From a virus, in the UHGV virus genome UHGV-0316020: DNA of 10,452 bases; one strand, given 5' to 3'. The notes under the pieces are model-generated. The model saw only the letters and a list, made by a program, of their open reading frames with translations, was not told where the DNA came from and searched no databases. The position numbers were made by a program, and so were the translations under genes. Position 1 is the stretch's first letter. Each line of letters opens with the position of its first letter. Below are positions 1 through 10,452 of the stretch, one piece after another.

Positions 1-220
1 CCTGTACATAGATTTGTGTAATTGCCTGATTTTGATATGTTCAATCCAGCATCAAATGAAGGTTAATTTATGGACGAAAAACAGTTACAGACTCTGGCTA
101 ACGAACTGGCCAAAAACCTCAAAACCCCTGAAGACCTCAGTCAGTTTGATCGAATTAACCTTCATTTGATGCTGGATTGAACATATCAAAATCAGGCAAT
201 TACACAAATCTATGTACAGG
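1..220. mobile_element. MITE-like element: 68-bp perfect terminal inverted repeats (1-68 and 153-220) around an 84-bp core carrying the start of an IS256-family-like transposase gene
   Basis: Reverse complement of 153-220 equals 1-68 exactly; first mismatch at positions 69/152. The core has an ATG at 70 encoding MDEKQLQTLANELAKNLKTPEDLSQFD, which I recognise as an IS256/Mutator-type transposase N-terminus. The left arm starts at window position 1, so the repeat may extend beyond the window. Confidence 0.5.
70..180 (+). pseudogene. truncated transposase N-terminal fragment (36 codons) that reads into the right inverted repeat
   Basis: ORF MDEKQLQTLANELAKNLKTPEDLSQFDRINLHLMLD; only the first ~28 residues look transposase-like, the rest is encoded by the repeat arm. 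Too short to be a functional transposase. Confidence 0.4.
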
Positions 221-287
221 CTCAGCTACTGGATATTGACGCTTATCAACTGTAATTTTCAGGGGCTATGAAGCCCCTTTTTATGTC

Positions 288-1058
288 TCAATAAGTGCCC
301 TTCTTATTCGGATTCACAGAGTACTTTCGTAAAGCATTACCCGACTTAAGCACTTTTGAAGCCTGCTCATTAGCTGAGGCTGTGAAGGTGCTCTCACCAT
401 TTTTAACGCTAACGCTCTTAGAGCACGTTACACGGGCTTTTAATGCTTCATCTGATAACTCACTTGCCGAATAGCTAAAAAGCTCTTTACAGGTCAGCAT
501 AGGTCTTCCAAGACTCGTTGTAGTGTTGCCAGTGTTCTTTTTACTGGTAGCACCACCGTCATTCGTGGTAGCAGTTTTGCCAGTAGCTGCTGAAACATCA
601 GTTTGCCCTACGATTGAACGAAATTCTACACCTTGGAAGGTCATCTGAATACGAAGACCATTAGCAATGGTATGCTCTTTACTCGCTTTAAACTGAGTAA
701 TGATACTATCAGTGATAGATATTCCATCTTTACAAACAATAGTGATGATTTGCTTCTGGTCTCGCCATTGTTCAACCGTAGAAATAAAGGTTTCTACAAG
801 TTGCCCCTGTCTGGTTAATAGAACTGAACCCGTCGAATCAACCACTACAACACCGCTGATAGAGATGGTCTTAGGTGCTCTCTGAACATTATCAGTTATA
901 GTTTGCCCCGATTGCATAGCCTGAGTTGTCACCATCATCGGTGAGTCATAGTCCATCTGTTCAGTAGCTGTTAAGGCAAGAAAAGATTCTACATTATCTC
1001 TAAGGTGAAAATAGATACCATCTTTACCTGAGTATCTAATTTGCTTTGTGTCAAACAT
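288..1058 (-). CDS. phage tail protein encoded immediately downstream of the tape measure gene (possibly distal-tail/Dit-like); function not recognised from sequence
   Basis: 256-aa ORF; RBS AGGA 9 nt upstream of the ATG; same strand and directly downstream of the tape measure gene; beta-rich N-terminal half, Thr/Ser/Gly-rich linker, small C-terminal domain. Product assignment is by synteny only. Confidence 0.4.
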
Positions 1059-1189
1059 TGTTGTTATTCCTATTCTGTTAAGCGTGAGCTACGTGAAATC
1101 TAATTTTTGATGTTGGTATCTGTTCAGAAGAAATCACGTAGCATTCGACTATTCATAGTTGAATCGTCATACTAGATAAAGATTAATAG

Positions 1190-1207
1190 ATTGCCATGTG
1201 TGGCAAT
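1190..1207 (-). terminator. weak hairpin (ATTGCCA-tgtg-TGGCAAT) 25 nt downstream of the tape measure stop; possible partial terminator or RNA processing site
   Basis: 7-bp perfect inverted repeat with 4-nt loop; on the minus strand it is followed by a moderately U-rich stretch, not a clean U-tract. Confidence 0.25.
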
Positions 1208-1231
1208 AAATATTAGTAGTTCTAACATTGT

Positions 1232-3298
1232 TTATTCCTCTGGGTAAGCTGAGCTAATCAAGGTATCTTCCTGCATACGATTAATATGAGATGTGGTTCT
1301 TTCATCAATAACCTTTCCATCAAGTACCGTCTGAGTTGTGATATTGATTGTCTGAGGCTGAATGTTTACTGACGGCTTGATAACCTTTAAATCTTGTGTG
1401 AATGTTTCCACTCGACCTTTCAGATTATTTAATGCTTCAGGTGAAAACTGTGGAACATCCTTTGATTTGCCCTGAACCATAGCCCATAAAACAGCAGCTA
1501 AAGAGTTCATGTCACCAGTCAATGCTTGGTCTGTGGGTTCCACCTTTGACCTTACAACTTTGTCAATTGGATTATCTGACTTACTCATCTGACGTTCATA
1601 GAACGGTTTAACAATGGAGTTAATCACATCAGTTGCCATACCGACAATCATTACTTTGGTAATTGCATCAGCTACAGATAATTTTCCTTTACCACCTTCA
1701 ACACTACCGGAACGTGAATTAATTCTTCCTGCTGCTGTATTTGCTACATTTCCAAGCGTGGAAATAGCCCTAATTAAGCTCCAGATGCCACCTACAGCAC
1801 CAATACCAGACCTTACAGCAACAATACCAGCAAGTCCCTTTAATGCACTTAACAGGCCATTTGCGATACCATCAGCTACAGCTTTTTGAGTGTCATTTAA
1901 TTCTCTGTAAGCAAGGGTCACTCTGTCAAAGAATCCCTGCACTCGGTAGCTAATCGTGGTTAAATCATCAATACCGTTTGACATACTTTTCATCAAGTTG
2001 CCAAAATGTTCACCAAGATTTTTAGATTGCCCACCTAGCGAATTAAGTAAATTAGTCAGTGACCTTGTAAAGTCTGTTAACCCTTCCTGTGAACCATCGA
2101 ACATTAAGGCCAGATTATTATTCCATGAATTACTTAAGCGGCCTAACTGCGTCTGAGTAGAGTTAATAATCTTTTCCCATCCACCCGCTTTATCAATCAT
2201 CAAGCCCATCTGTTTAGCGACTTTAGGGAGAACATCTTTAGAAAGAACCTTACCGTCTTTCATGGCCTTGTCTAATTCTTCCGTAGTCATCCCAAGGCTT
2301 CTGGCAAATAACTGGAAAGCACCTGCCATTCTGTCACCTAGCTGACCGCGTAACTCTTCAGCTTGAATCTTTCCTTTAGAAGCCATCTGCTCGAAAGCTT
2401 TTAGAATCCCGTTAATCTCATCAGTGCTTAAACCCATTAGTCGGGATGTACCAATCACATTAGAAAATAAGGATTCTTTCTGGTCTGCATTCATATCACC
2501 AGCACCAGCGGAAAACTTAGCAAAGCTGCTTAATGTCTCAATCTGGTCTACACCAGTATTATTAGCAAGATTCTTAACAAATTCTGTAGCTCGTTTAGCA
2601 CCTTCATCACCTAAAACGAATTGTGCCGCTCGTTGTGATGCTTCTTTTTTCAGACCAACCTCCATAATCCGCCTGTAAGCTTCTAAGGCTGTCTGAAAAC
2701 TATAAATGGCTGTACCTGCTTTGATTGCACTTGTAGCTAATACATCCAGACCATTCGAAGCATTTTCACTGTGATTATTTTTGCTGGTGGTCTTGTTAAA
2801 CTTAGAAAGTGTTTCACGTAGATTTTGATTTAACTTTGCTAACTCACGATTAAAAGCTTCGTTCCCAAGTGTCTTGGATTTACTGCTTAAGCTGTAATAC
2901 TGGCTTCTAAAATACTTCTCAAGCAGAGGATTAAAGTCACGAAGTTTGCTCATATTCACGCTATGCGCTGCTGTGATTGCTCTGTTGCCGCTAATTCGTG
3001 GTTGCCTTGCTGCTTTAACAGTTTCTTCAACCTGAGTTTTGAACTTAAAGACCTTCGTAGATTTGGCTCTTTCCTCCAGCTTATTAAAAGTCTGGTTAAT
3101 CTTCTTTTCCATATTCCCCAAAGAGGCTGTTAAATCCTTATCCATGCTCTTTGGGTTAACTTTAAATGCTTTATTTAAATTACGCTCAATCTTTGTAGCT
3201 GACTGCAAAGCTGCCTTTTCAACTCTTTGCAGTCCCTTAATAACGTTCTCATTGAAGCCTAGCTCAACGATAAAACTATCAACTGTGAATTTGCTCAT
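1232..3298 (-). CDS. phage tail tape measure protein (TP901-family-type core)
   Basis: 688-aa ORF with helical repeat-rich N-terminus, a conserved tape-measure core (..EELRGQLGDRMAGAFQLFARSLGMTTEELDKAMKDGKVLSKDVLPKVAKQMG..) and a Gly-rich hydrophobic segment (GIANGLLSALKGLAGIVAVRSGIGAVGGIW); RBS GAGGTGA upstream of the ATG. Confidence 0.85.
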   Translation of the reverse strand: MSKFTVDSFIVELGFNENVIKGLQRVEKAALQSATKIERNLNKAFKVNPKSMDKDLTASLGNMEKKINQTFNKLEERAKSTKVFKFKTQVEETVKAARQPRISGNRAITAAHSVNMSKLRDFNPLLEKYFRSQYYSLSSKSKTLGNEAFNRELAKLNQNLRETLSKFNKTTSKNNHSENASNGLDVLATSAIKAGTAIYSFQTALEAYRRIMEVGLKKEASQRAAQFVLGDEGAKRATEFVKNLANNTGVDQIETLSSFAKFSAGAGDMNADQKESLFSNVIGTSRLMGLSTDEINGILKAFEQMASKGKIQAEELRGQLGDRMAGAFQLFARSLGMTTEELDKAMKDGKVLSKDVLPKVAKQMGLMIDKAGGWEKIINSTQTQLGRLSNSWNNNLALMFDGSQEGLTDFTRSLTNLLNSLGGQSKNLGEHFGNLMKSMSNGIDDLTTISYRVQGFFDRVTLAYRELNDTQKAVADGIANGLLSALKGLAGIVAVRSGIGAVGGIWSLIRAISTLGNVANTAAGRINSRSGSVEGGKGKLSVADAITKVMIVGMATDVINSIVKPFYERQMSKSDNPIDKVVRSKVEPTDQALTGDMNSLAAVLWAMVQGKSKDVPQFSPEALNNLKGRVETFTQDLKVIKPSVNIQPQTINITTQTVLDGKVIDERTTSHINRMQEDTLISSAYPEE

Positions 3299-3347
3299 TC
3301 ATGTTTTTCACCTCATAGACTTCGGATAGAAGACTATCCTCATATAC

Positions 3348-3388
3348 AAAAAAGGGAGAGCTACCGATGTCACTCGATAATCTCTCCC
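3348..3388 (-). terminator. intrinsic terminator-like hairpin between the 70-aa ORF and the tape measure gene
   Basis: GGGAGAG (3354-3360) pairs with CTCTCCC (3382-3388), 21-nt loop with an internal CGA/TCG pairing; on the minus strand the stem is followed directly by UUUUUUGU (complement of 3346-3353). Confidence 0.45.
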
Positions 3389-3414
3389 GTTGATTTTTAC
3401 CCAACCAATTCTTT

Positions 3415-3627
3415 TTAATGTCTGACAAGATAATGTAATTCCGTTTCACCTATGATTTGGGCATCAGAAGGGATACGGTCGATACACCACTTTGGAATCT
3501 TGCGTGTTTTTGGTTTGTGTGAGGTGATGTAATGACGGTTATTCTTAATTCGTAGCTTTTGTCTATTTGGTTGTAGCTGGAGTCTTTCGCAAACAGACCG
3601 AATAGTCTCTAAACGTTCTTCAAACAT
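3415..3627 (-). CDS. hypothetical small basic protein (70 aa)
   Basis: ORF with RBS GAGGTGA 6 nt upstream of the ATG; starts 23 bp after the stop of the 234-aa ORF; Lys/Arg-rich; no motif recognised. Confidence 0.6.
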   Translation of the reverse strand: MFEERLETIRSVCERLQLQPNRQKLRIKNNRHYITSHKPKTRKIPKWCIDRIPSDAQIIGETELHYLVRH

Positions 3628-3650
3628 TAATCACCTCACATATTGCATAA

Positions 3651-4355
3651 TCAAACAGCCTTGCTAAATTCTCGTGGAACACTCAGAAAATCATTGAAGC
3701 TGATAATCTGTGCCAACTCTTGACGGTACTCCTTAGCCAGCGCTTGATGGTCACTAATCAGCTTAGCCAGTCTTGATTTCAGCAAATTAATCTCATTTTC
3801 TCTTGCTTTCATCAGTTTCTCTTTGGCAATTTCTTCAAGCTCAGCTTGTGATTTATCAGCAACAATTAGAGACAATCGATGTGGTGCTCTGACAGCTCTT
3901 TCTGTACGAATAACTCTTTGACCTTCTGGTAAATCTGCAATCACTTTACCAATCTCTACAGGGTCATACCCCCAACCGTCACGGTCTAGTCGAGAGAAAT
4001 AAGCATAAGAATTGGTTTGAAGCTCCATTAAAATAGCCATTTCGTCAATTTCGTCTTCAAGCTTGGACTGAATTTTCTCGTAAACACTTCTCATTGCTTC
4101 TTGAGAGTCTTTAATAGCTTGGAAATATCGGCGTTGTAGCTTCAACTTCAAATCAAGTTCACACCGTTCGTTCATAGAAAAATCAATTTCAACTCTTGGA
4201 ATCTCTAGTGGTTCTGGTGGAATATATGGACCTTTATTTACTTCGTGTGATTCCCGCCAAGCTCTATCAAAAGATTCACGCAAACTTAATTCGTGAATAT
4301 CAAGTGCACTTGGTCTGTTCTCAACAATCATTTCGTGTTCATTACGAATAGACAT
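3651..4355 (-). CDS. hypothetical protein (234 aa) with coiled-coil-like C-terminal half
   Basis: ORF with strong RBS AAGAGGTGA 7 nt upstream of the ATG; charged heptad-like C-terminus (..EINLLKSRLAKLISDHQALAKEYRQELAQI..); no family recognised. Confidence 0.7.
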   Translation of the reverse strand: MSIRNEHEMIVENRPSALDIHELSLRESFDRAWRESHEVNKGPYIPPEPLEIPRVEIDFSMNERCELDLKLKLQRRYFQAIKDSQEAMRSVYEKIQSKLEDEIDEMAILMELQTNSYAYFSRLDRDGWGYDPVEIGKVIADLPEGQRVIRTERAVRAPHRLSLIVADKSQAELEEIAKEKLMKARENEINLLKSRLAKLISDHQALAKEYRQELAQIISFNDFLSVPREFSKAV

Positions 4356-4463
4356 TATTTTTTCACCTCTTGGTTTTTGTTTGTTTGTTTTTCAATTTAT
4401 AGAAGCACACTCAGCAATCAGAGGTGAAGAGTCTGACTGAACAAGAACCTGCCAAGTGTGCCT

Positions 4464-4536
4464 TTAAAAACTGAAAAAGCCCTAAACATAGGTGATTCGG
4501 ATATTCATGGAATCATCCTTATCTGTGAAGGGCTTT
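4464..4536 (-). terminator. compound stem-loop with trailing U-tract in the 3' region of the small-protein operon (non-canonical terminator candidate)
   Basis: Outer stem AAAGCCCT (4476-4483) / AGGGCTTT (4529-4536) with inner stem TGATTC/GAATCA; on the minus strand followed by UUCAGUUUUUAAAGG. The loop is long, so the terminator call is tentative. Confidence 0.3.
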
Positions 4537-4596
4537 GGAGGTTTGCTTTATAACGTTAACGAAGTTTCAGGAAAAACTTTCTTTAAAAGCTCTGTT

Positions 4597-4635
4597 TAAA
4601 AACTCTTAAAGAAAGCCCTAACTCATGATTAGGGC
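4597..4635 (-). terminator. intrinsic terminator-like hairpin for the minus-strand small-protein operon
   Basis: Stem GCCCTAA (4615-4621) / TTAGGGC (4629-4635), 7-nt loop; on the minus strand followed by UUUCUUUAAGAGUUUUU. Confidence 0.45.
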
Positions 4636-4864
4636 AAAGCTGTAAAGGATTCAATAACGAATGAACAAAGACTTTTTGAGATGACCTCTCAAGTTATATA
4701 AGAGGTCATGTAGCGAAAAGCATTGCACCTTTCCAACTCAGAATATAGTTATCATCGATGTAGAATGATTAATATTTTAATTCAAGGAGAATTGCTCTCC
4801 CTATATATAAAATTATGTCATGCTCAAGGTTATTTGTCAACAGCTTTTAACAGATTGGTAACAT

Positions 4865-4930
4865 TTATACTTTAATAGATGCACCTGCAATCATACCAAT
4901 CAATACAAAACAGATAATCACCAATTCCAT
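4865..4930 (-). CDS. candidate 21-aa hydrophobic peptide (MELVIICFVLIGMIAGASIKV), translationally coupled to the 107-aa ORF
   Basis: Its ATG overlaps the TAA stop of the upstream ORF (TAATG at 4928-4932); GAGG lies about 10 nt upstream; the peptide is essentially a single transmembrane-like helix. Not in the supplied ORF track because it is too short. Confidence 0.35.
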   Translation of the reverse strand: MELVIICFVLIGMIAGASIKV

Positions 4931-5253
4931 TAATGCACCACCCTCGAATCCGTCACCAAAATATTGTCAGCGTACAAAATTGCTATAGCCGCCTTGAGAT
5001 ATTTTTCAGGGCTAACGCTGTATCGGTTAGTTTCCTCAATAATAAGGCGCTTCATGTTTGAGTCGGTAACGGGAAACATAAAACGTGGGTCACCAGTTTC
5101 AATTTCCTGAATAAAATCTTCAATTGTTTCTGAGTTATCAGCCATTAGCTTTAGTAATTTATCAAAGTCAATTGATACACCGGAATCACTGAAAGCCTGA
5201 ATCATCAGAGCGGTGTCGCTATCAACGAAAATCTGTAGCGGGAAATTATTCAT
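4930..5253 (-). CDS. hypothetical acidic protein (107 aa)
   Basis: ORF with RBS AGAGGA 7 nt upstream of the ATG; acidic composition; no motif recognised. Confidence 0.65.
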   Translation of the reverse strand: MNNFPLQIFVDSDTALMIQAFSDSGVSIDFDKLLKLMADNSETIEDFIQEIETGDPRFMFPVTDSNMKRLIIEETNRYSVSPEKYLKAAIAILYADNILVTDSRVVH

Positions 5254-5391
5254 TTTTAAAATCCTCTAAAAACACATCTTAAATCTGCCAAAATAGCCAT
5301 TCTGAGGCCAGTAACCATGCGGGTTACAGAGGGAGTGAGACACCTTAGTAATAGGGTAGCTCATCTTTGAGTCTCACTCATTCTCACAGAC

Positions 5392-5778
5392 TTACACAGA
5401 CGCTTTAATCTTGTAGTATTGACTACGTGATAAACCGTATTTCTCAGAAATATAACTTTGTGATTGTCCTTTGGTGATTGCATCAATGATTAAATCTTTA
5501 TCGTATCTGTTGCCATTGGCTTTGTGCTTGTCACCATTTTTAATAGAGTTGAAACTCTCAATTAATTTAATGGCGTCTTTAAGGTCGTCTTCGTAAGCAT
5601 AATCAAAACCCCTGATAAACTCGAAATCACCATTATCTTTTTGTGCTTCAGTCCAGATATCAAATCTTGAGGCTAATTGCTGGTGGGTAAACTTGGGTTT
5701 ATTGGTTTGTGTTACGTCTTTCCAGACTTTACCGTCAAATCTTACCAAATGGTCACGATGTTTATAAAAGTCATACAT
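5392..5778 (-). CDS. hypothetical protein with C-terminal helix-turn-helix (possible transcriptional regulator)
   Basis: 128-aa ORF; its ATG overlaps the stop of the upstream 93-aa ORF (TAATG at 5776-5780); C-terminus SQSYISEKYGLSRSQYYKIK has the helix-turn-recognition-helix pattern. Confidence 0.65.
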   Translation of the reverse strand: MYDFYKHRDHLVRFDGKVWKDVTQTNKPKFTHQQLASRFDIWTEAQKDNGDFEFIRGFDYAYEDDLKDAIKLIESFNSIKNGDKHKANGNRYDKDLIIDAITKGQSQSYISEKYGLSRSQYYKIKASV

Positions 5779-6059
5779 TAAACCTCCATCGCTAATTTGT
5801 GAATTTTGATGCTTAGCAACCTTGCTAAATCCAGTCCAAAAGCATTTAAAGATTTCAGACTATCAAGGTCATCTTGCTTAATCCTGATATGGTGTCTTGC
5901 AGCCTCTAAGCGACTATTAAGCAAATCTTGTTCGTTAATATCACGGTTAATTGCAAGCTTCATCACTGCTGAGTGTGGCAGACCTGTAATGTTTTTGATT
6001 CGGTTAAGTTCTTCAAAGGCTGTCTTTGTAACTCTGGTTAGCGTGTGTTTATTTCCCAT
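5778..6059 (-). CDS. hypothetical protein (93 aa; start revised to the internal ATG)
   Basis: The track ORF 5778..6161 overlaps the upstream gene by 100 nt and has no RBS; the ATG at 6057-6059 (MGNKHTLTRV..) is preceded by AGAGGAA and sits 2 nt after the stop of the 184-aa ORF. Confidence 0.6.
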   Translation of the reverse strand: MGNKHTLTRVTKTAFEELNRIKNITGLPHSAVMKLAINRDINEQDLLNSRLEAARHHIRIKQDDLDSLKSLNAFGLDLARLLSIKIHKLAMEV

Positions 6060-6060
6060 T

Positions 6061-6615
6061 TTAAAATTCCTCTGCTTGTGCGTATACGTCAAATTCAAAG
6101 TCTGGTTCACTGGTTGTAAGGCTGATATTTCCAACTTCCGCATGATGATTAATTGTCTCAATAACTTTCATACAAATAGTGGCTAAGTTAGCGCAATATT
6201 TATCACTTGGTAATTCGTAGCTAAGTCTGGTTGCTTGTCTTTGAAGATGGCTCGTCACTGTGCTTGAACTAATCTCATCAAGACTTCGCAGTAAATAAAA
6301 AACCTTCCGGTGATAATTATCTCTTCCAAGACTGCGACAAGTACCGATAATTACATCTTCAATTTTTGATGGTAGTTGCTCGTAAGAATCAAAGCTCATC
6401 AAGAAAGTTTTTAAAGTATTCTCTTTTTCTTTGCGTACTGGCATAAATCTGTCTCGTGGCGTAATGCTACGAATGACCGCTTCAATGTTTTTACGTTCGG
6501 TTTTGGAAAAGGCTGGTACTTCGTAGCTGGTGGGGGTGTCTGTGTAAGCGTAGGAGTTGTGCTTGTTGCGTTCTCTTGATGCCTGAAGCATCGCTCTAAA
6601 TTCTGAATCCTGCAT
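6061..6615 (-). CDS. hypothetical protein (184 aa), first gene of the minus-strand small-protein operon
   Basis: ORF directly downstream of a TTGACA-17-TAGTAT promoter; GAGGG upstream of the ATG; no motif recognised. Confidence 0.7.
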   Translation of the reverse strand: MQDSEFRAMLQASRERNKHNSYAYTDTPTSYEVPAFSKTERKNIEAVIRSITPRDRFMPVRKEKENTLKTFLMSFDSYEQLPSKIEDVIIGTCRSLGRDNYHRKVFYLLRSLDEISSSTVTSHLQRQATRLSYELPSDKYCANLATICMKVIETINHHAEVGNISLTTSEPDFEFDVYAQAEEF

Positions 6616-6666
6616 TCATATTCTGACCCTCATGAGATGTTATTATTCTGTTAACTTATATATACA

Positions 6667-6695
6667 ATACTAGCATTTTCAAAGACTAATGTCAA
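6667..6695 (-). promoter_or_regulatory. sigma70-like promoter for the 184/93/128/107-aa operon
   Basis: On the minus strand: TTGACA (complement of 6690-6695), 17-nt spacer, TAGTAT (complement of 6667-6672), about 50 nt upstream of the ATG at 6615. Confidence 0.5.
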
Positions 6696-6702
6696 GCATT
6701 TT

Positions 6703-6732
6703 TTAACATTTCATTAACATCTGTGGTATAAT
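6703..6732 (+). promoter_or_regulatory. divergent sigma70-like promoter with extended -10
   Basis: TTAACA (6703-6708), 18-nt spacer, TGgTATAAT (6724-6732); its -35 lies 8 bp from the -35 of the minus-strand promoter, giving a back-to-back arrangement. Confidence 0.45.
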
Positions 6733-6912
6733 GGTTCTATGAGAGAGGGAAAAATAGAAAAGGCGTGGCTATGTATTTGGTCGCATGTTTTGCATTGCAC
6801 ACAGACCTCTTCAATCGCTCTGTAACGAGTTAAATGGCCTCTTCAGGTCAACTATAAGGTCAGGTACTTTTTGTATCAGAATGCGATTGAGAGCGTCTTA
6901 CAAGGAAAACTA

Positions 6913-7089
6913 ATGGTAAATCTCCCTCCTGAGCTGGGGTCACCTGATGTATGGGCTGGTGGAGGCGTTGGGCTGATTGCAGGTCTGCTACTCCGCTACG
7001 TCCTCGTCAGAGTGCTTGTTGTCTTTAAACTGTTCGGTCGTACATGGACGCTTGACCTTAAGGATAATGACCACACAGAACCCCGTTAA
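6913..7089 (+). CDS. small single-pass membrane protein (58 aa)
   Basis: ATG at 6913 preceded by AAGGAAAA at about 6-nt spacing; the track ORF starts further upstream at a TTG with no RBS. Hydrophobic segment WAGGGVGLIAGLLLRYVLVRVLVVF. Looks more GC-rich than its neighbours. Confidence 0.5.
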   Translation: MVNLPPELGSPDVWAGGGVGLIAGLLLRYVLVRVLVVFKLFGRTWTLDLKDNDHTEPR

Positions 7090-7147
7090 CCCCCCTTCAA
7101 AACCCCCTGTACGAGATGACAGATAGAAGTCTATGGTATAGGGGTGC

Positions 7148-7190
7148 CTTTAGCATTTTGTGCTATCTATTAAAAAATAGCTTGACAGAA
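7148..7190. repeat. copy 1 of an imperfect direct repeat (CTTTAGCATTTnGTGCT..TTATTAA..CTTGACA) that flanks the methyltransferase cassette
   Basis: Aligns with 8272-8340 (about 22 of 26 matches in the first block plus a shared CTTGACA block); copy 2 carries an internal ~22-bp duplication. Confidence 0.5.
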
Positions 7191-7211
7191 CCGGAAAGCT
7201 GTACCTATCAA
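7182..7211 (+). promoter_or_regulatory. possible plus-strand promoter that would read antisense into the methyltransferase 3' region
   Basis: TTGACA (7182-7187), 18-nt spacer, TATCAA (7206-7211); no plus-strand ORF downstream. Confidence 0.25.
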
Positions 7212-7495
7212 GTATTCACCTCTCTGACAGTAACTTCTAAAAGTTCTTATTTTTCAATGAGTTGTAATCACCCAATATAAAGGACTGACAAGACTCTTCA
7301 CAGAGAACTTCCTGGACTCACTAAGATACAAGGCGATAACCCCAAAAAGGGAGAGCCACCTTCTTAACTGCCCCCTTAAACAATCTTTACAGACCCCGTT
7401 CACCAGTCTCAATATTTTATTTCTCGCTCTTCGTTTGTTGCTCGTTTCTATTATTGAGGGGGTTTGAAAAACCTCTGTAAAATAACCCTTCCAGT

Positions 7496-7528
7496 AAAAA
7501 GCGAATAACCCCAGAAAGGGGAAATCGC
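7496..7528 (-). terminator. intrinsic terminator of the methyltransferase gene
   Basis: On the minus strand: GCGA-UUU-CCCC-UUUCU-GGGG-UUAU-UCGC followed by UUUUU, about 40 nt after the stop at 7569. Confidence 0.55.
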
Positions 7529-7568
7529 CTCTTTAACATTCTCGTAATCAGTGCTCTATATGAGAATT

Positions 7569-8237
7569 TCAGCCCAACCTTTGAACAATCCTGTAAGTGG
7601 TGCTTAGAGGCATTCTTAGCGATTCTGCGATGCTCTTGATGGATTGCCCTTGGTCATGCATTTTAATCAACCTGTCAAGCGTCTGTGCATCGTGTATATG
7701 AGGTCTTCCACGTAAACCACCCCTGTTAACCACGGCAAGTAAAAGCATTGTGTCGCCACAATAAATTGTCTGGGTAACTTCAACTTTCGGTTTGCGGGGT
7801 GTGTTCCTGTATATCAAAACGCAACTTGGAAACGGTGAACGCGCTGCAACACCTTTCTTCCCTGCTGGTGGAAGGTATTTGACTGCTCGGTGTAACGTTC
7901 GAATCTCATGCAGGAAGGGGTTTGTATATACACACCGAAGCCAGTAAGTTGTCTTTGACCTGTGCGGAACCAGACATACACACACATCAGCTTCAGGGGC
8001 TTTTGAGAGGAACTGTTCAGCCATGCTAAACGGCGGGTTAACGAAGACCCGTTCACCAACCCACGATTGACGGCTTATATCATCGGTGAACCGTGGCAAC
8101 AATGCGTCATGCTCAGTTGCAGCACCATCTAAAGTGAAGTTAAACTCACGATGCAGGTTATGAAATAAACGATACGGTGTACGCCAGTCATCAGAACCAC
8201 CATGATAACGACCGACATTGATTATTGGATGTGACAC
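7569..8237 (-). CDS. Dam-family (phage-type, PF05869-like) DNA N6-adenine methyltransferase with a C-terminal serine-recombinase-like GRP+HTH extension
   Basis: GTG start with RBS AAGAGGGG upstream. N-terminal ~150 aa carry DWRTP, FTLDGAA, VFVNPPFS (NPPF catalytic motif), CLVPHRSKTTYW and FPSCVLIY. The final ~55 aa (..NRGGLRGRPHIHDAQTLDRLIKMHDQGQSIKSIAESLRMPLSTTYRIVQRLG) resemble a resolvase/invertase C-terminal DNA-binding domain. Confidence 0.8.
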   Translation of the reverse strand: MSHPIINVGRYHGGSDDWRTPYRLFHNLHREFNFTLDGAATEHDALLPRFTDDISRQSWVGERVFVNPPFSMAEQFLSKAPEADVCVCLVPHRSKTTYWLRCVYTNPFLHEIRTLHRAVKYLPPAGKKGVAARSPFPSCVLIYRNTPRKPKVEVTQTIYCGDTMLLLAVVNRGGLRGRPHIHDAQTLDRLIKMHDQGQSIKSIAESLRMPLSTTYRIVQRLG

Positions 8238-8271
8238 AAGCGAAGCGCCCCTCTTAGTATATTTCTTAATC

Positions 8272-8340
8272 GTCTCTTTAGCATTTAGTGCTTTTTATTA
8301 AGTTTAGCACTTTTTGCTAAAGACAAAACACTTGACAAAA
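8272..8340. repeat. copy 2 of the imperfect direct repeat flanking the methyltransferase cassette (with an internal duplication TTTAGTGCTTTTT / TTTAGCACTTTTT)
   Basis: See copy 1 at 7148-7190; lies directly upstream of the methyltransferase start codon. Confidence 0.5.
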
Positions 8341-8745
8341 TGGTAAGATTGTTCACATGACCTTACTTAACAGATTCTTAAGAGCTTTGAAACGAACTGT
8401 TTAACAGGTCACTACATCTGGTCTTATCGTTCCCTGTCTTCTTGGTAGTTCTGTTAAGTATCTTTTCAGGTATCTCTTACAGTCACTGTTAAGATGATAC
8501 TCTCCCTTCGGGTTATATCGTATCTCTCCTCCCGTTAAATACCCCTTCACAGTCAGACTAAATAACACCTGTGTAGTTTCTTGGTAGAATCTTTCAAGGT
8601 AACTTAACTCTGAGTTTATGAAGTTGACCTATGAGATAGATTCTACCGAATCTGTTAGTCAATTGTTGCTTAGGTGCTGCTAAGGCTTACTTAGTGGGAA
8701 GAGAGGGAATATGTGACCATAGGAACCCCTCCTGTTAAAAGTTTC

Positions 8746-8773
8746 TTGACGTTACTATCTCGATATGTATAAT
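8746..8773 (+). promoter_or_regulatory. strong sigma70-like promoter (TTGACG, 16 nt, TATAAT)
   Basis: TTGACG at 8746-8751; TATAAT at 8768-8773 preceded by TG; a CCTGTTAAAA motif (8731-8740) abuts the -35. Confidence 0.6.
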
Positions 8774-8779
8774 GGCTTA

Positions 8780-8950
8780 CTGTACTAGGTTTACTTCCAA
8801 AGCAACCAAGCACACTCTCTATGGCAGTGTCCGGCGAGGTAAGGTCGTGTAGGGTGCGGTTCGGTGGGGTAAGGTTTGGTGCGGTATGGGTGGATTGTCG
8901 TAGCCACGTTAAAAATCGACTTATAGGGACTCTTTCGGGAGTCCTTTTTA
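8780..8950 (+). ncRNA. candidate ~170-nt G-rich small RNA delimited by promoter and intrinsic terminator; class unknown
   Basis: Predicted start about 7 nt after the -10 and end at the terminator U-tract; body contains tandem GGTAAGGT / GGTGCGGT units (8838-8895); no RBS-equipped ORF inside. Confidence 0.4.
8927..8950 (+). terminator. intrinsic terminator: GGACUC(U)-UUCG-(G)GAGUCC hairpin followed by UUUUU
   Basis: 7-bp stem including one G-U pair (8927-8933 / 8938-8944), UUCG tetraloop (8934-8937), T-run at 8945-8949. Confidence 0.6.
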
Positions 8951-9126
8951 GTTTGTATAAAATCTGTACAGTAACTTTTCAGAGTCTGAAAATTTTTATA
9001 AATATCGTAGTAACCCCTCTACATTCCCCTTCACCGATAATCTTAAAAATATCTGACAGATGTCTGTAGCTGCTAAGTACCCGTCACACCAGCTATGTGA
9101 CCCCCTTGGCAAAAAAGCCAAATATC

Positions 9127-9144
9127 AGCTACATCCATGTAGCT
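9127..9144. other. palindrome AGCTACAT-CC-ATGTAGCT, 11 bp downstream of the recombinase stop: recombinase terminator hairpin and/or crossover-site-like sequence
   Basis: Two perfect 8-bp inverted half-sites around a 2-bp spacer; on the minus strand followed by GAUAUUUGGCUUUUUU. Confidence 0.35.
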
Positions 9145-9154
9145 ATTCAGTAAC

Positions 9155-9703
9155 TTATTTAGCAAGTCTGTAATAAGTTGCTCTAGAGATTCCTAACTCT
9201 TCCTGAATCTGCAACCTCGTCTTACCTTGTGAAATAAGCGCCTGTACAGCCTCTGAAGAAGCTTTTACAGGCCTCCCCATATGTACCCCTTCAGCTTTAG
9301 CACGTTCAATACCAGCCTTTCTACGTTCACTGATAAGGTCTTTTTCAAGGTCAGCTAAACCAGCCATCATAGTAAGCATTGCTTTACCGATTGGTGTAGA
9401 CAGGTCAAAACCTTCACGTAAAGAAACAACCCTCACACCTTTAGTCTGTAGTGCCTCCACGTTAGAGAGCACATCAACGGTATTACGCCCTAAACGGTCA
9501 ATAGCTACCACAACTAACGTATCGTCACACCTTACATAGTTCATCATGTCTCTAAAACCATCTCTGCTGGTGGCCTTTGTAGCTCCTGAGACAGCCTCAT
9601 CAATAAACCATTTATCGACCTTGTGAACCTTCTCTATCTGTAGTTTCTGGTTGTCTACAGTCTGGTCTTGTGTTGATACCCTGCAATAACCAATCACCGC
9701 CAT
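9155..9703 (-). CDS. small serine recombinase (resolvase / Hin-Gin-type invertase family)
   Basis: 182-aa ORF; N-terminal IGYCRVSTQDQ with the catalytic Ser at position 10; VVAIDRLGRNT; E-helix ..ERRKAGIERAKAEGVHMGRP; C-terminal HTH LQIQEELGISRATYYRL; RBS AGGGG upstream of the ATG. Confidence 0.9.
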   Translation of the reverse strand: MAVIGYCRVSTQDQTVDNQKLQIEKVHKVDKWFIDEAVSGATKATSRDGFRDMMNYVRCDDTLVVVAIDRLGRNTVDVLSNVEALQTKGVRVVSLREGFDLSTPIGKAMLTMMAGLADLEKDLISERRKAGIERAKAEGVHMGRPVKASSEAVQALISQGKTRLQIQEELGISRATYYRLAK

Positions 9704-9719
9704 AATGTTCCCCTAAGAA

Positions 9720-9825
9720 GTCTCAAAAGTTGGTCTCATAAGTTTAGCTGTCTCATAATTCAAAAACAAGCTTATGAGACACTTGGAAGGTGCATTCTAC
9801 CGTTACGTTGAAAGTGTCTCAAAAG
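9720..9825. promoter_or_regulatory. array of five GTCTCA(A/T)AA(G/T) repeats (four direct, one inverted) directly upstream of the recombinase start: operator- or iteron-like
   Basis: Copies at 9720-9729, 9733-9742, 9750-9759, 9771-9780 (inverted) and 9816-9825; 9733-9742 and 9771-9780 form a perfect 10-bp inverted repeat. Confidence 0.45.
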
Positions 9826-9962
9826 GACTTCCTTTTAAGACTGGTTATGAAGGAGCTATGAAGATTTTAGGAAGGTAACTATAACCATCACTTTCTAACT
9901 TTCACGTAGGAAATCGTTAAGTTTCTTGATAGTTACACCACGTAACCAAACATCTATACATC

Positions 9963-9984
9963 GCTATATAGCCCTGTATATAGC
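9963..9984. repeat. palindrome GCTATATA-gccctg-TATATAGC (operator-like)
   Basis: Perfect 8-bp inverted arms with a 6-bp spacer. Confidence 0.4.
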
Positions 9985-10126
9985 ACTTTTCTAGGAGTCG
10001 AGAGAGGGACGACTAACACCCTGCATAGTTCCCTGAAAAGGGACTTCACAGATTCTTTATATATTTCAATAAGTTATGCTAAAAAGAGACTATACCGATA
10101 CTGCATAGAATCTGTGTAAAACTGCT

Positions 10127-10371
10127 TAGATACTTGGAAATCTACTATTAAATTGCATAGTCATTCACCTGATATTGTCAAATGATTATGACTTCAATGA
10201 CCCTTGAATGAAGTCTATTCGGTTTTCTAAGAGACCTGTTAAAAACAGGACAATATCAGGTGAATGACTATGCAATTTAATAGTAGATTTCCAAGTATCT
10301 ACCTGTTTTTAACAGGTCTCTTAGAAAACCGAATAGACTTCATTCAAGGGTCATTGAAGTCATAATCATTT
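10127..10371. repeat. interleaved inverted repeat A-B-A'-B': A 10127-10179, B 10180-10249, A' 10249-10301 (reverse complement of A), B' 10302-10371 (reverse complement of B)
   Basis: Verified base by base: 10249-10301 is the exact reverse complement of 10127-10179, and 10302-10371 is the exact reverse complement of 10180-10249. B ends in the near-palindrome CCTGTTAAAAACAGG. Confidence 0.8.
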
Positions 10372-10452
10372 CAGTAGAAAAACCAGGTCTCGATTTTAAA
10401 TGCAAATAGCAATCATATTCAATAAGGCAAGACGATCAGGATCAGTGAAAAT

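What the first reader, a model, noticed from the sequence alone, without database searches (positions are those of the whole stretch)
4865..4930. Unannotated 21-codon hydrophobic peptide overlapping the stop of the 107-aa ORF
MELVIICFVLIGMIAGASIKV is a single transmembrane-like helix whose ATG shares a nucleotide with the upstream TAA. Small membrane peptides at operon ends are often toxins, regulators of membrane proteins or lysis modulators, and are routinely missed by annotation.
Basis: seen in the sequence. Interest (0 to 1): 0.4.

Follow-up and report, generated by a model that had tools for sequence, protein, structure and literature searches.

The report
Conserved unannotated tiny membrane-peptide gene
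A 21-codon reading frame that no annotation lists is a real, conserved gene for a tiny membrane-spanning peptide, made together with a DNA-binding regulator inside a small mobile element carried by about 9% of complete E. coli genomes; what it does is still unknown.

Summary
On the minus strand, 4930..4865 encodes MELVIICFVLIGMIAGASIKV, and its ATG shares one A with the TAA of the 107-aa ORF (TAATG).

It is not a chance ORF. All 42 related loci examined (E. coli, E. albertii, Citrobacter, viral and metagenome contigs) keep an intact small ORF at this spot. Each has the same TAATG overlap and a Shine-Dalgarno-like GAGG/AAGGTGG 7-10 nt upstream.

Two allelic types exist, 21 aa and 25 aa (e.g. 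MGLIIAWTALGLFVGCWVGNTVNKN). They show no nucleotide similarity above shuffles, yet share:
- a hydrophobic helix;
- an invariant GxxxG;
- a single Lys/Arg two residues from the C-terminus.

In the 25-aa type, third codon positions vary most (13/8/19). pN/pS is about 0.3 in frame and about 1 in the other frames, which all contain stops.

RefSeq annotation omits the ORF in all six genomes inspected. It matches no Pfam or NCBIfam family and is absent from a 15-billion-protein collection.

The upstream 107-aa protein models as a single-chain tandem ribbon-helix-helix DNA binder. The peptide is the last cistron before a strong conserved promoter that drives tail genes.

The host element is an ~11-kb serine-recombinase island carrying Felix O1-like tail genes. 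Function is untested; I infer membrane action through helix packing.

The parts
4865..4930 (-). Small ORF, 21 codons plus TAA (stop 4867..4865): MELVIICFVLIGMIAGASIKV. The hydrophobic stretch is L3-I19, with GxxxG at G12-G16, E2 near the N-terminus and K20 near the C-terminus.
   Evidence: conservation; motif check.
4928..4932 (-). TAATG stop/start overlap (TAA of the 107-aa ORF, ATG of the peptide ORF, one A shared).
   Evidence: Present in all 43 loci, including those with three different C-termini of the upstream gene.
4938..4945 (-). Shine-Dalgarno-like GAGGGTGG inside the end of the 107-aa ORF, 7 nt before the ATG.
   Evidence: Equivalent elements (AAGGTGG, GAGGG, GAGGT, GGGG) sit at 7-10 nt in every relative.
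4930..5253 (-). Upstream 107-aa ORF. The family is annotated only as 'hypothetical' and has no Pfam domain. It is modelled as a single-chain tandem ribbon-helix-helix protein with a low-confidence C-terminal tail (residues 99-107).
4812..4840 (-). Strong sigma-70-type promoter: TTGACA, 17 nt, CATAAT, with TG before the -10 (11 of 12 matches). It begins 24 nt after the peptide stop codon and marks the end of the upstream transcription unit.
   Evidence: conserved in all related loci.
4838..4863 (-). Three direct TGTT(A/G) repeats at 10-11 nt spacing (4863..4859, 4852..4848, 4842..4838), between the peptide stop and the -35. The last repeat overlaps the -35. This is a possible regulator binding site (inference).
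   Evidence: Read from the sequence; the block TGTTACCAATCTGTTAAAA(A)GCTGTTGACAAA is nearly invariant across loci.
4607..4805 (-). Conserved structured leader or small RNA after the promoter: a 5' hairpin, the invariant hairpin GAAAGGU-GCAAU-GCUUUUC, a second hairpin with variable stems, and an intrinsic terminator (4635..4615 plus a T-run). This is context for the small ORF, not part of it.
   Evidence: no Rfam family.

Best explanation
The small ORF is a genuine protein-coding gene. It is translated by termination-reinitiation coupling from the upstream 107-aa gene (TAATG overlap plus an internal Shine-Dalgarno element). It yields a 21-25-residue peptide that forms one hydrophobic helix in the inner membrane.

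The single Lys/Arg two residues from the C-terminus, with no positive charge at the N-terminus, predicts an N-out/C-in orientation. The invariant GxxxG (GxxxGxxxG in most 25-aa alleles) predicts that it works by helix-helix packing. That packing could be with itself, as a small oligomer that perturbs the membrane, or with a host or phage membrane protein.

The peptide is the last cistron of a regulatory gene cluster: an RHH-like 93-aa protein, a 128-aa protein with a weak helix-turn-helix match, and the 107-aa tandem RHH protein. This cluster belongs to an ~11-kb serine-recombinase integrative element. The peptide would therefore be made whenever that cluster is expressed, in an amount tied to the upstream regulator.

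Shown: the ORF, its conservation, its coding-type variation, the coupling signals and the shared physico-chemical pattern. Inferred: translation, membrane insertion, orientation and helix packing. Unknown: the target and the phenotype.
For: - Intact ORF with TAATG overlap in the window and all 42 relatives; 22 distinct peptides.
- 25-aa allele, 20-21 unique DNA sequences: variable sites by codon position 13/8/19. pN/pS is 0.29-0.32 in frame, against 0.96 and 1.27 in the other frames, which carry stops in all sequences.
- Amino-acid changes are conservative (I/V/L/A/M).
- The Shine-Dalgarno-like element is kept at 7-10 nt upstream even where the upstream gene ends differently (...SRVVH...SVRVH...NPYSEVM).
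- The 21-aa and 25-aa alleles have no nucleotide similarity above shuffles (105 of 500 shuffles score as high). All 22 peptides nevertheless share GxxxG at residues 11/12-15/16, one K/R at position -2 and no other basic residue.
- Hydropathy: best 17-residue window is 2.8 for the 21-aa type and 2.0-2.7 for the 25-aa type.
- The ORF is intact even in decayed copies with IS insertions and frameshifted neighbours (L154).
- Synonymous divergence inside the ORF (pS about 0.5) contrasts with the almost invariant promoter block just downstream. The constraint is therefore on the peptide, not on a DNA or RNA element.
Against: - There is no expression data of any kind: no ribosome profiling, proteomics or reporter.
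- The window's own 21-aa allele has too little variation for a selection test (5 variable sites, pN/pS 0.68). The coding signature therefore rests on the 25-aa allele and on shared properties.
- All relatives belong to one element family in Enterobacteriaceae, so the evolutionary depth is modest.
- A 17-18-residue hydrophobic stretch is at the short end for spanning a bilayer.
- No partner or phenotype can be named.
Confidence: 0.7

Rival explanations
1. Toxin of a toxin-antitoxin-like pair. The peptide is a membrane-damaging toxin, and the upstream ribbon-helix-helix protein is its antidote and/or transcriptional governor, as in type II modules (antitoxin first, toxin second, overlapping stop/start). 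It would serve to stabilise the element or to abort phage infection.
For: - The upstream protein has an RHH fold with a low-confidence C-terminal tail, as many type II antitoxins do.
- The gene order and 1-nt overlap fit.
- The peptide has the size and hydrophobicity of known membrane toxins such as Ibs and ShoB (own knowledge).
- The glycine-zipper pattern in most 25-aa alleles is compatible with pore-forming oligomers.
Against: - No type II toxin I know of is a 21-25-aa membrane peptide, and a soluble RHH protein binding a membrane helix is unprecedented as far as I know.
- Peptide alleles are shuffled relative to upstream-protein subfamilies. The same MTLIVLW... allele follows both the 107-aa and the 101-aa subfamily, and the ...DSKVVH C-terminus precedes both allele types. 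This is not the co-variation expected of binding partners.
- No sigma-70 promoter was found in front of the 107-aa gene by the consensus scan.
- No PADLOC hit.
Confidence: 0.15
2. Type I toxin: a small hydrophobic toxin whose translation is held down by an antisense or trans-acting small RNA. The obvious candidate is the conserved ~190-nt RNA made from the promoter just downstream.
For: Size and composition resemble the Ibs, ShoB and TisB class (own knowledge). A conserved structured RNA with its own strong promoter and terminator lies immediately downstream.
Against: - No promoter-like site on the opposite strand reads into the ORF.
- Predicted duplexes between the peptide's initiation region and the downstream RNA are no better than with shuffled sequence in 15 loci of both allele types (z from -2.1 to +2.3).
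- The ORF has no promoter of its own and is coupled to an upstream protein gene, unlike the type I loci I know.
Confidence: 0.05
3. Only the act of translation matters. Ribosomes reading through these codons might protect the 3' end of the early transcript from Rho or RNases, or influence RNA structure next to the downstream promoter, and the peptide itself would be irrelevant.
For: The ORF ends 24 nt from a promoter. Part of the ORF can pair with the conserved block after the stop codon (inverted repeat 4853-4865 / 4889-4901).
Against: Such a role would constrain neither amino-acid composition nor specific motifs. Yet two alleles unrelated at the DNA level both encode a hydrophobic helix with GxxxG and a penultimate Lys/Arg. 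Substitutions within the 25-aa allele are also biased to synonymous and conservative changes.
Confidence: 0.05
4. C-terminal membrane anchor added by -1 frameshifting. Some ribosomes would slip at ...CAT TAA and read TTA ATG GAA..., producing a 129-aa tail-anchored form of the 107-aa protein instead of a free peptide.
For: The small ORF is in the -1 frame relative to the 107-aa ORF, and the frame is open across the junction.
Against: There is no slippery heptamer at the junction in any allele (GTG CAT TAA, GTT CAC TAA, GTT ATG TAA). An ATG and a well-spaced Shine-Dalgarno element are conserved, which a frameshift would not need. No fused form was seen among the longer family members retrieved (the 128- and 144-aa proteins fetched, of the 144-aa class two more were not fetched); those fetched are N-terminal extensions.
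Confidence: 0.03
5. Chance ORF carried along by linkage with no function.
For: It is very short; the window allele varies little; there is no expression evidence.
Against: 42 of 42 relatives are intact despite about 50% synonymous-site divergence in the 25-aa allele. The other two frames are closed in all sequences. The start, the Shine-Dalgarno element and the overlap are conserved in three upstream contexts.
Confidence: 0.02

Closest known systems
Ibs / ShoB class of type I toxins of E. coli (18-26-aa hydrophobic peptides; own knowledge)
   Same: Length, a single very hydrophobic helix, routinely missed by annotation, chromosomal or mobile-element location in Enterobacteriaceae.
   Different: Those have their own promoter and an antisense or divergent RNA antitoxin (Sib, OhsC). 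Here no antisense promoter or complementary RNA was found, and the ORF is coupled to an upstream protein gene. No sequence similarity: no NCBIfam or Pfam match.
LidI of Vibrio cholerae PLE satellites (PMC7182436)
   Same: A transmembrane ORF that was missing from the annotation of PLEs 1-3, in a small element that parasitises a virulent phage. PLE integrates with a large serine recombinase (own knowledge). The present element also has a large serine recombinase and carries genes related to a virulent phage group.
   Different: LidI is 66 or 121 aa. There is no sequence relation. Its role (collapsing lysis inhibition) is shown experimentally, whereas nothing is known here. Whether the present element is a satellite at all is unproven.
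Small inner-membrane proteins encoded in operons with their partners (CydX, KdpF; also AcrZ, MgrB, MgtS, SgrT; own knowledge)
   Same: One transmembrane helix of a few tens of residues that acts by packing against another membrane protein. Some are last or first cistrons of operons.
   Different: Those sit beside, or are co-regulated with, the membrane complex they serve. Here the co-transcribed neighbours are predicted DNA-binding proteins, and no membrane protein is encoded in the element.
Type II toxin-antitoxin modules with ribbon-helix-helix antitoxins (ParD, RelB, CcdA type; own knowledge)
   Same: An RHH protein first, a second gene overlapping its stop codon, and a flexible C-terminal tail on the RHH protein.
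   Different: The second gene is a 21-25-aa membrane peptide, not a folded cytosolic toxin. The RHH protein is a single-chain tandem, of the TraY/AvtR kind. There is no allele co-variation between the two genes.
Pinholins and holins with glycine-zipper helices (e.g. phage 21 S68; own knowledge)
   Same: A GxxxG / GxxxGxxxG pattern in a membrane helix; mobile-element origin.
   Different: The holins I know are about 60 aa or more, usually with two or more helices, and lie next to endolysin and spanin genes. None of these is present in the window.

Membership tests
Type I toxin (Ibs/ShoB/TisB/Hok-like) | Small hydrophobic membrane peptide | tested here: met
   21-25 aa; best 17-residue hydropathy window 2.0-2.8.
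Type I toxin (Ibs/ShoB/TisB/Hok-like) | RNA antitoxin: an antisense transcript overlapping the toxin mRNA, or a nearby small RNA complementary to its initiation region | tested here: not met
   No promoter-like site on the opposite strand. Duplexes with the adjacent conserved RNA are not better than shuffles in 15 loci. These are consensus-based tests only; no transcript data.
Type I toxin (Ibs/ShoB/TisB/Hok-like) | Sequence membership of a described toxin family | tested here: not met
   No hit in NCBIfam or Pfam at E up to 10, apart from a sub-threshold Inovirus G7P match (E 0.053, 14 bits against a cut-off of 27).
Type I toxin (Ibs/ShoB/TisB/Hok-like) | Toxicity on overexpression | not testable with these tools
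   Needs an induction experiment.
Type II toxin-antitoxin module | Upstream DNA-binding antitoxin (here RHH) with an overlapping downstream gene | tested here: met
   Tandem RHH fold; TAATG overlap.
Type II toxin-antitoxin module | Toxin belongs to a known folded toxin superfamily | tested here: not met
   A 21-25-aa hydrophobic peptide with no family match.
Type II toxin-antitoxin module | Cognate pairs co-vary, indicating a specific protein-protein interface | tested here: not met
   Peptide alleles and upstream-protein subfamilies occur in mixed combinations.
Holin / pinholin | Encoded in a lysis cassette with endolysin and/or spanin | tested here: not met
   No protein of the window has a lysis-category PHROG as its best hit, and Pfam finds no lysis domain. 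The one weaker 'endolysin' PHROG match (phrog_1517, E 2.3e-18) is on the tube-initiator-like protein, which is better explained as Dit-like (PF21821).
Holin / pinholin | At least one transmembrane helix plus a charged C-terminal domain, typically 60 aa or more | tested here: not met
   One helix, and only 2-6 residues after it.
LidI-like satellite lysis modulators | Homology to LidI | not tested
LidI is 66 or 121 aa, so the resemblance is by analogy only.
Small membrane-protein regulators (CydX, KdpF, AcrZ type) | A partner membrane complex encoded or co-regulated nearby | tested here: not met
   No predicted membrane protein among the window's ORFs of 100 aa or more; the neighbours are DNA-binding or tail proteins.
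Tandem ribbon-helix-helix DNA-binding proteins (for the upstream 107-aa partner) | Two beta-alpha-alpha units in one chain | tested here: met

The most novel reading that the evidence does not exclude
The ~11-kb element would be a PLE-like parasite of, or defence island against, virulent Felix O1-like (Ounavirinae) phages. It carries its own tape measure and tube-initiator genes behind a terminator-gated promoter. The peptide would be its membrane effector, made with the early regulators on phage infection, to change lysis timing or depolarise the cell. That would make it a 21-25-aa counterpart of PLE's LidI or of an abortive-infection toxin.
Probability: 0.12. Interest if true: 0.8.

Novelty: new member of a known kind. 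Interest (0 to 1): 0.5.

Why it matters
Very small membrane proteins are systematically absent from genome annotation, yet several are potent toxins or regulators. This one is present in roughly 475 of 5,426 complete E. coli genomes and is annotated in none of those inspected. It has no family in Pfam or NCBIfam.

It gives a clean test case with two naturally occurring alleles that are unrelated at the DNA level and share a motif (GxxxG, penultimate Lys). It is also a strictly conserved example of stop/start-coupled expression with a DNA-binding regulator.

The peptide also marks the boundary between the regulatory genes and the terminator-gated tail genes of a compact element. The relation of that element to Felix O1-like virulent phages has not, as far as I could find, been described. 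If the element proves to be a satellite or a defence island, the peptide is a prime candidate effector.

Tried and rejected
- Megablast of the locus against GenBank phages and PLSDB plasmids found nothing. The element is chromosomal only.
- tblastn of the 25-aa peptide and of the 107-aa, 234-aa and 70-aa proteins against 50,697 phage records found nothing.
- Exact look-up of four peptide variants among 15 billion proteins: absent.
- Full-text search of papers for the peptide sequences: none. Searches for a described satellite with these features found nothing relevant.
- Pfam, NCBIfam and PADLOC scans of the peptides or neighbours were not informative for the peptide.
- Rfam search of the window gave only sub-threshold microRNA-like hits on hairpins.
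About 25 of the 120 loci returned were real after a blastn filter.
- The first AlphaFold run of the 107-aa protein, with a shallow alignment, was unusable (pLDDT 51.6). Adding the 101-aa subfamily fixed it.
- The afdb50 fold library was not available.
- A profile search of the 107-aa family against PDB sequences gave nothing significant.
- The idea that the downstream RNA pairs with the peptide's start region came from two short inverted repeats (I8, I10). I rejected it: the two arms are in the wrong order for one duplex, and there is no excess complementarity across loci.
- A lipoprotein reading of the 25-aa allele (..FVGC..) was rejected: there is no positively charged N-region, and the 21-aa allele has no equivalent Cys.
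- The longer family members fetched (128 and 144 aa) are N-terminal extensions, not 107-aa-plus-peptide fusions.

Full report
**1. The observation**

The window's genes in this region lie on the minus strand. Reading that strand, the 107-aa ORF (5253..4930) ends ...GTG CAT TAA. The A at 4930 is both the last base of that TAA and the first base of an ATG. That ATG opens a 21-codon ORF, MELVIICFVLIGMIAGASIKV, ending with TAA at 4867..4865.

Among the 41 ATG-initiated ORFs of 18-30 aa in the six frames of the window, this one is the most hydrophobic (GRAVY 2.21; population mean 0.45, sd 0.76).

**2. Where the window comes from**

The locus is 99.8% identical to a stretch of several E. coli chromosomes. 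In NZ_CP059283 it is an ~11.7-kb insertion between tonB and yciI. On the minus strand its order is:
- a small serine recombinase;
- a Dam-type methylase with a C-terminal HTH;
- proteins of 184 aa and 93 aa (the 93-aa one looks RHH-like from its sequence);
- a 128-aa protein with a weak, below-cut-off C-terminal HTH match (Pfam HTH_28, E 0.0032, 18 bits against a cut-off of 25);
- the 107-aa protein and the small ORF;
- a promoter and a ~460-nt untranslated stretch;
- proteins of 234 aa and 70 aa;
- a tape measure protein and a 256-aa 'baseplate' protein;
- convergently, a large serine recombinase.

The same architecture sits between wrbA and ymdF in an O121 strain. It also lies next to a lambdoid prophage in an IMG/VR contig. 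It is therefore a discrete element rather than a random prophage stump. About 475 of 5,426 complete E. coli genomes have a copy, always chromosomal. PGAP annotates the 107-aa gene but never the small ORF.

**3. Conservation**

I collected relatives in several ways:
- through the 107-aa protein;
- through the conserved promoter block (the metagenome hits were filtered by blastn);
- through the 234-aa protein;
- from RefSeq E. coli genomes.

In the window and all 42 other loci there is an intact small ORF ending 22-24 nt before the -35 hexamer. Each starts in a TAATG overlap with the upstream gene.

There are 22 distinct peptides in two classes:
- Type A: 21 aa, the window's type, with 5 variants that differ by E2V, I11V, I19V and V21A.
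- Type B: 25 aa, with the pattern M-[GTSM]-L-[IV]-[IV]-[AL]-W-T-[ALV]-L-G-[LVI]-[FL]-[VC]-G-C-[WILC]-[VIM]-[GNA]-N-[AT]-[VA]-N-[KR]-N.

The stop codon varies (TGA, TAA, TAG). There is no length variation within a class.

**4. Coding signature**

For type B (20-21 unique DNA sequences), variable sites fall 13/8/19 on codon positions 1/2/3. Pooled pairwise pN/pS is 0.29-0.32 in the ORF frame. The two other frames give 0.96 and 1.27, and every sequence has stops in them.

Synonymous divergence inside the ORF is high (pS about 0.5), while the promoter block a few bases downstream is almost invariant. Conservation of the frame is therefore not a by-product of a conserved DNA element.

Type A has only five variable sites (pN/pS 0.68), too few to test. 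Its four amino-acid changes are conservative apart from E2V.

**5. Translation signals**

Every locus has a purine-rich Shine-Dalgarno-like element 7-10 nt before the ATG: GAGGGTGG in the window (4945..4938), and AAGGTGG, GAGGG, GAGGT or GGGG elsewhere. This holds although the upstream gene ends in three different ways (...DS[RK]VVH...DSVR[VIA]H...NPY[SG]EV[MV]).

The third ending belongs to a 101-aa subfamily only about 31% identical to the window protein. The pairing 'this protein family followed by a coupled small hydrophobic ORF' is therefore older than the close relatives.

No slippery sequence exists at the junction. The longer family members I fetched (128 and 144 aa) are N-terminal extensions rather than fusions. 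I therefore read the overlap as termination-reinitiation coupling, not frameshifting.

**6. What the two alleles share**

Aligned as DNA, types A and B are no more similar than shuffled sequence (105 of 500 shuffles score at least as high). The flanks on both sides are nearly identical, so the ORF behaves like an exchangeable cassette. Yet all 22 peptides share:
- a 17-18-residue apolar stretch starting at residue 2-3;
- GxxxG at residues 11/12-15/16, extended to GxxxGxxxG in most type B variants;
- exactly one basic residue, placed two residues before the C-terminus;
- no other basic residue.

This pattern argues that the peptide itself is under selection. It should insert as a single helix with the C-terminus in the cytoplasm (positive-inside rule, established knowledge) and use a small-residue face for helix-helix packing.

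**7. The partner and the surroundings**

The 107-aa family has about 3,400 members at 90% clustering, all 'hypothetical' and none with a Pfam domain. They come from E. coli, Shigella, Salmonella, E. albertii and Citrobacter.

Directly after the small ORF lies a near-consensus promoter with an extended -10 (4840..4812). It is preceded by three TGTT(A/G) repeats at helical spacing, the last of which overlaps the -35. It is followed by a conserved structured RNA of ~190 nt that ends in an intrinsic terminator, and by a second terminator-like hairpin before the 234-aa gene.

That layout (a strong promoter, then terminators, then structural genes) resembles a late operon gated by antitermination or repression. 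This is an inference; it is not tested.

**8. Rivals**

- Type I toxin reading: not supported. There is no opposite-strand promoter, and the adjacent RNA shows no excess complementarity in 15 loci of both allele types.
- Type II-like reading (RHH antidote plus peptide toxin): fits the gene order and the fold. However, the 'toxin' is unlike any type II toxin I know, and the two genes do not co-vary. The same peptide alleles follow different upstream subfamilies, and one C-terminus precedes both peptide types.
- Translation-only role: does not explain the shared peptide motifs.
- Holin role: unlikely, because the peptide is too short and no lysis genes are present.

I therefore commit to 'small inner-membrane peptide acting through helix packing, made in step with the regulator'. 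Whether it perturbs the membrane by itself or targets another membrane protein is left open. I rate these as roughly equally likely.

**9. Comparison with known systems and novelty**

By kind this is a familiar object: a short hydrophobic peptide missed by annotation, like Ibs and ShoB, like CydX and KdpF, or like LidI of the Vibrio PLE satellite. LidI was likewise missing from the annotation of PLEs 1-3 (PMC7182436).

By sequence it belongs to no described family. Its fixed pairing with a tandem RHH protein is not something I can match to a described system. I rate it a new member of a known kind, of moderate interest. That rating would rise if the element turns out to interact with virulent phages.

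**10. Side finding that bears on function**

The 256-aa protein after the tape measure gene is ~70% identical to the protein encoded right after the tape measure gene of Ounavirinae (Felix O1-like virulent myoviruses). It is found in 299 phage records. In the Felixounavirus Bas63 the tape measure protein is gp17 and the tube initiator is gp18 (PMC12609058), so I infer that the gene after the tape measure gene there is the tail tube initiator.

The element's tape measure protein aligns end to end with the Ounavirinae one at ~30% identity. None of the other element proteins tested (107, 234 and 70 aa) has any phage homologue.

A small island with a large serine recombinase that carries copies of two tail-initiation genes of a virulent phage recalls PLE and ICP1. 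It could be a satellite or a tail-assembly decoy. I found no paper on it. This is a lead, not a result.

Noticed in passing
window 1-10452 (whole element); tail genes 288..1058 and 1232..3298, minus strand: The window is almost a complete ~11.7-kb integrative element bounded by a large and a small serine recombinase, with the same architecture at three different chromosomal sites. Its 256-aa protein is ~70% identical to the protein encoded right after the tape measure gene in virulent Felix O1-like phages (inferred tube initiator), and its tape measure protein is ~30% identical end to end. The 107-, 234- and 70-aa proteins have no phage homologue. It may be a PLE-like satellite or a tail-assembly decoy aimed at Ounavirinae; no publication was found.
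   Followed up: partly
window 4607..4840, minus strand: A near-consensus promoter is followed by a conserved ~190-nt structured RNA: a 5' hairpin whose stem varies with pairing kept, the invariant hairpin GAAAGGU-GCAAU-GCUUUUC, a second hairpin with three alternative stems that all pair, and an intrinsic terminator. A second terminator-like hairpin (4476-4536) lies before the 234-aa gene. There is no Rfam family. It could be a small RNA or an antitermination-type leader for the tail genes.
   Followed up: partly
window 10191..10360: A perfect ~59-bp inverted repeat around a ~50-nt spacer (DNA fold -70.9 kcal/mol, z -19.6). It lies between the small serine recombinase gene and the yciI end of the element, and Rfam picked it up as sub-threshold microRNA-like hits. 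It could be a recombinase site, an element end or a MITE-like insertion.
   Followed up: partly
window 5254..5391, minus strand: The 139-nt spacer before the 107-aa gene holds two inverted repeats (GAGTGAGAC...GTCTCACTC and GTAACC-N5-GGTTAC). These are conserved even in the distant 101-aa subfamily loci, where some gene callers fuse the spacer in frame to the protein (the 128-144-aa 'extended' forms). It looks like a conserved operator or RNA element rather than coding sequence.
   Followed up: no
window 6616..7568 and 8238..9154: Two stretches of about 0.9 kb have no ORF above about 80 aa, on either side of the Dam-HTH gene. In some relatives the first is occupied by a 313-aa HTH protein that may be replication-related, plus a 96-aa gene. 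In the window they could be decayed genes or an origin.
   Followed up: no
window 4853..4901, minus strand: The conserved block after the stop codon (AATGTTACCAATC) can pair with codons 10-14 of the 21-aa ORF (GATTGGTATGATT). The 25-aa allele has a different complementary segment (GGTAACA) to the same block. This may be a 3' stem-loop of the early transcript; its covariation was not tested.
   Followed up: no
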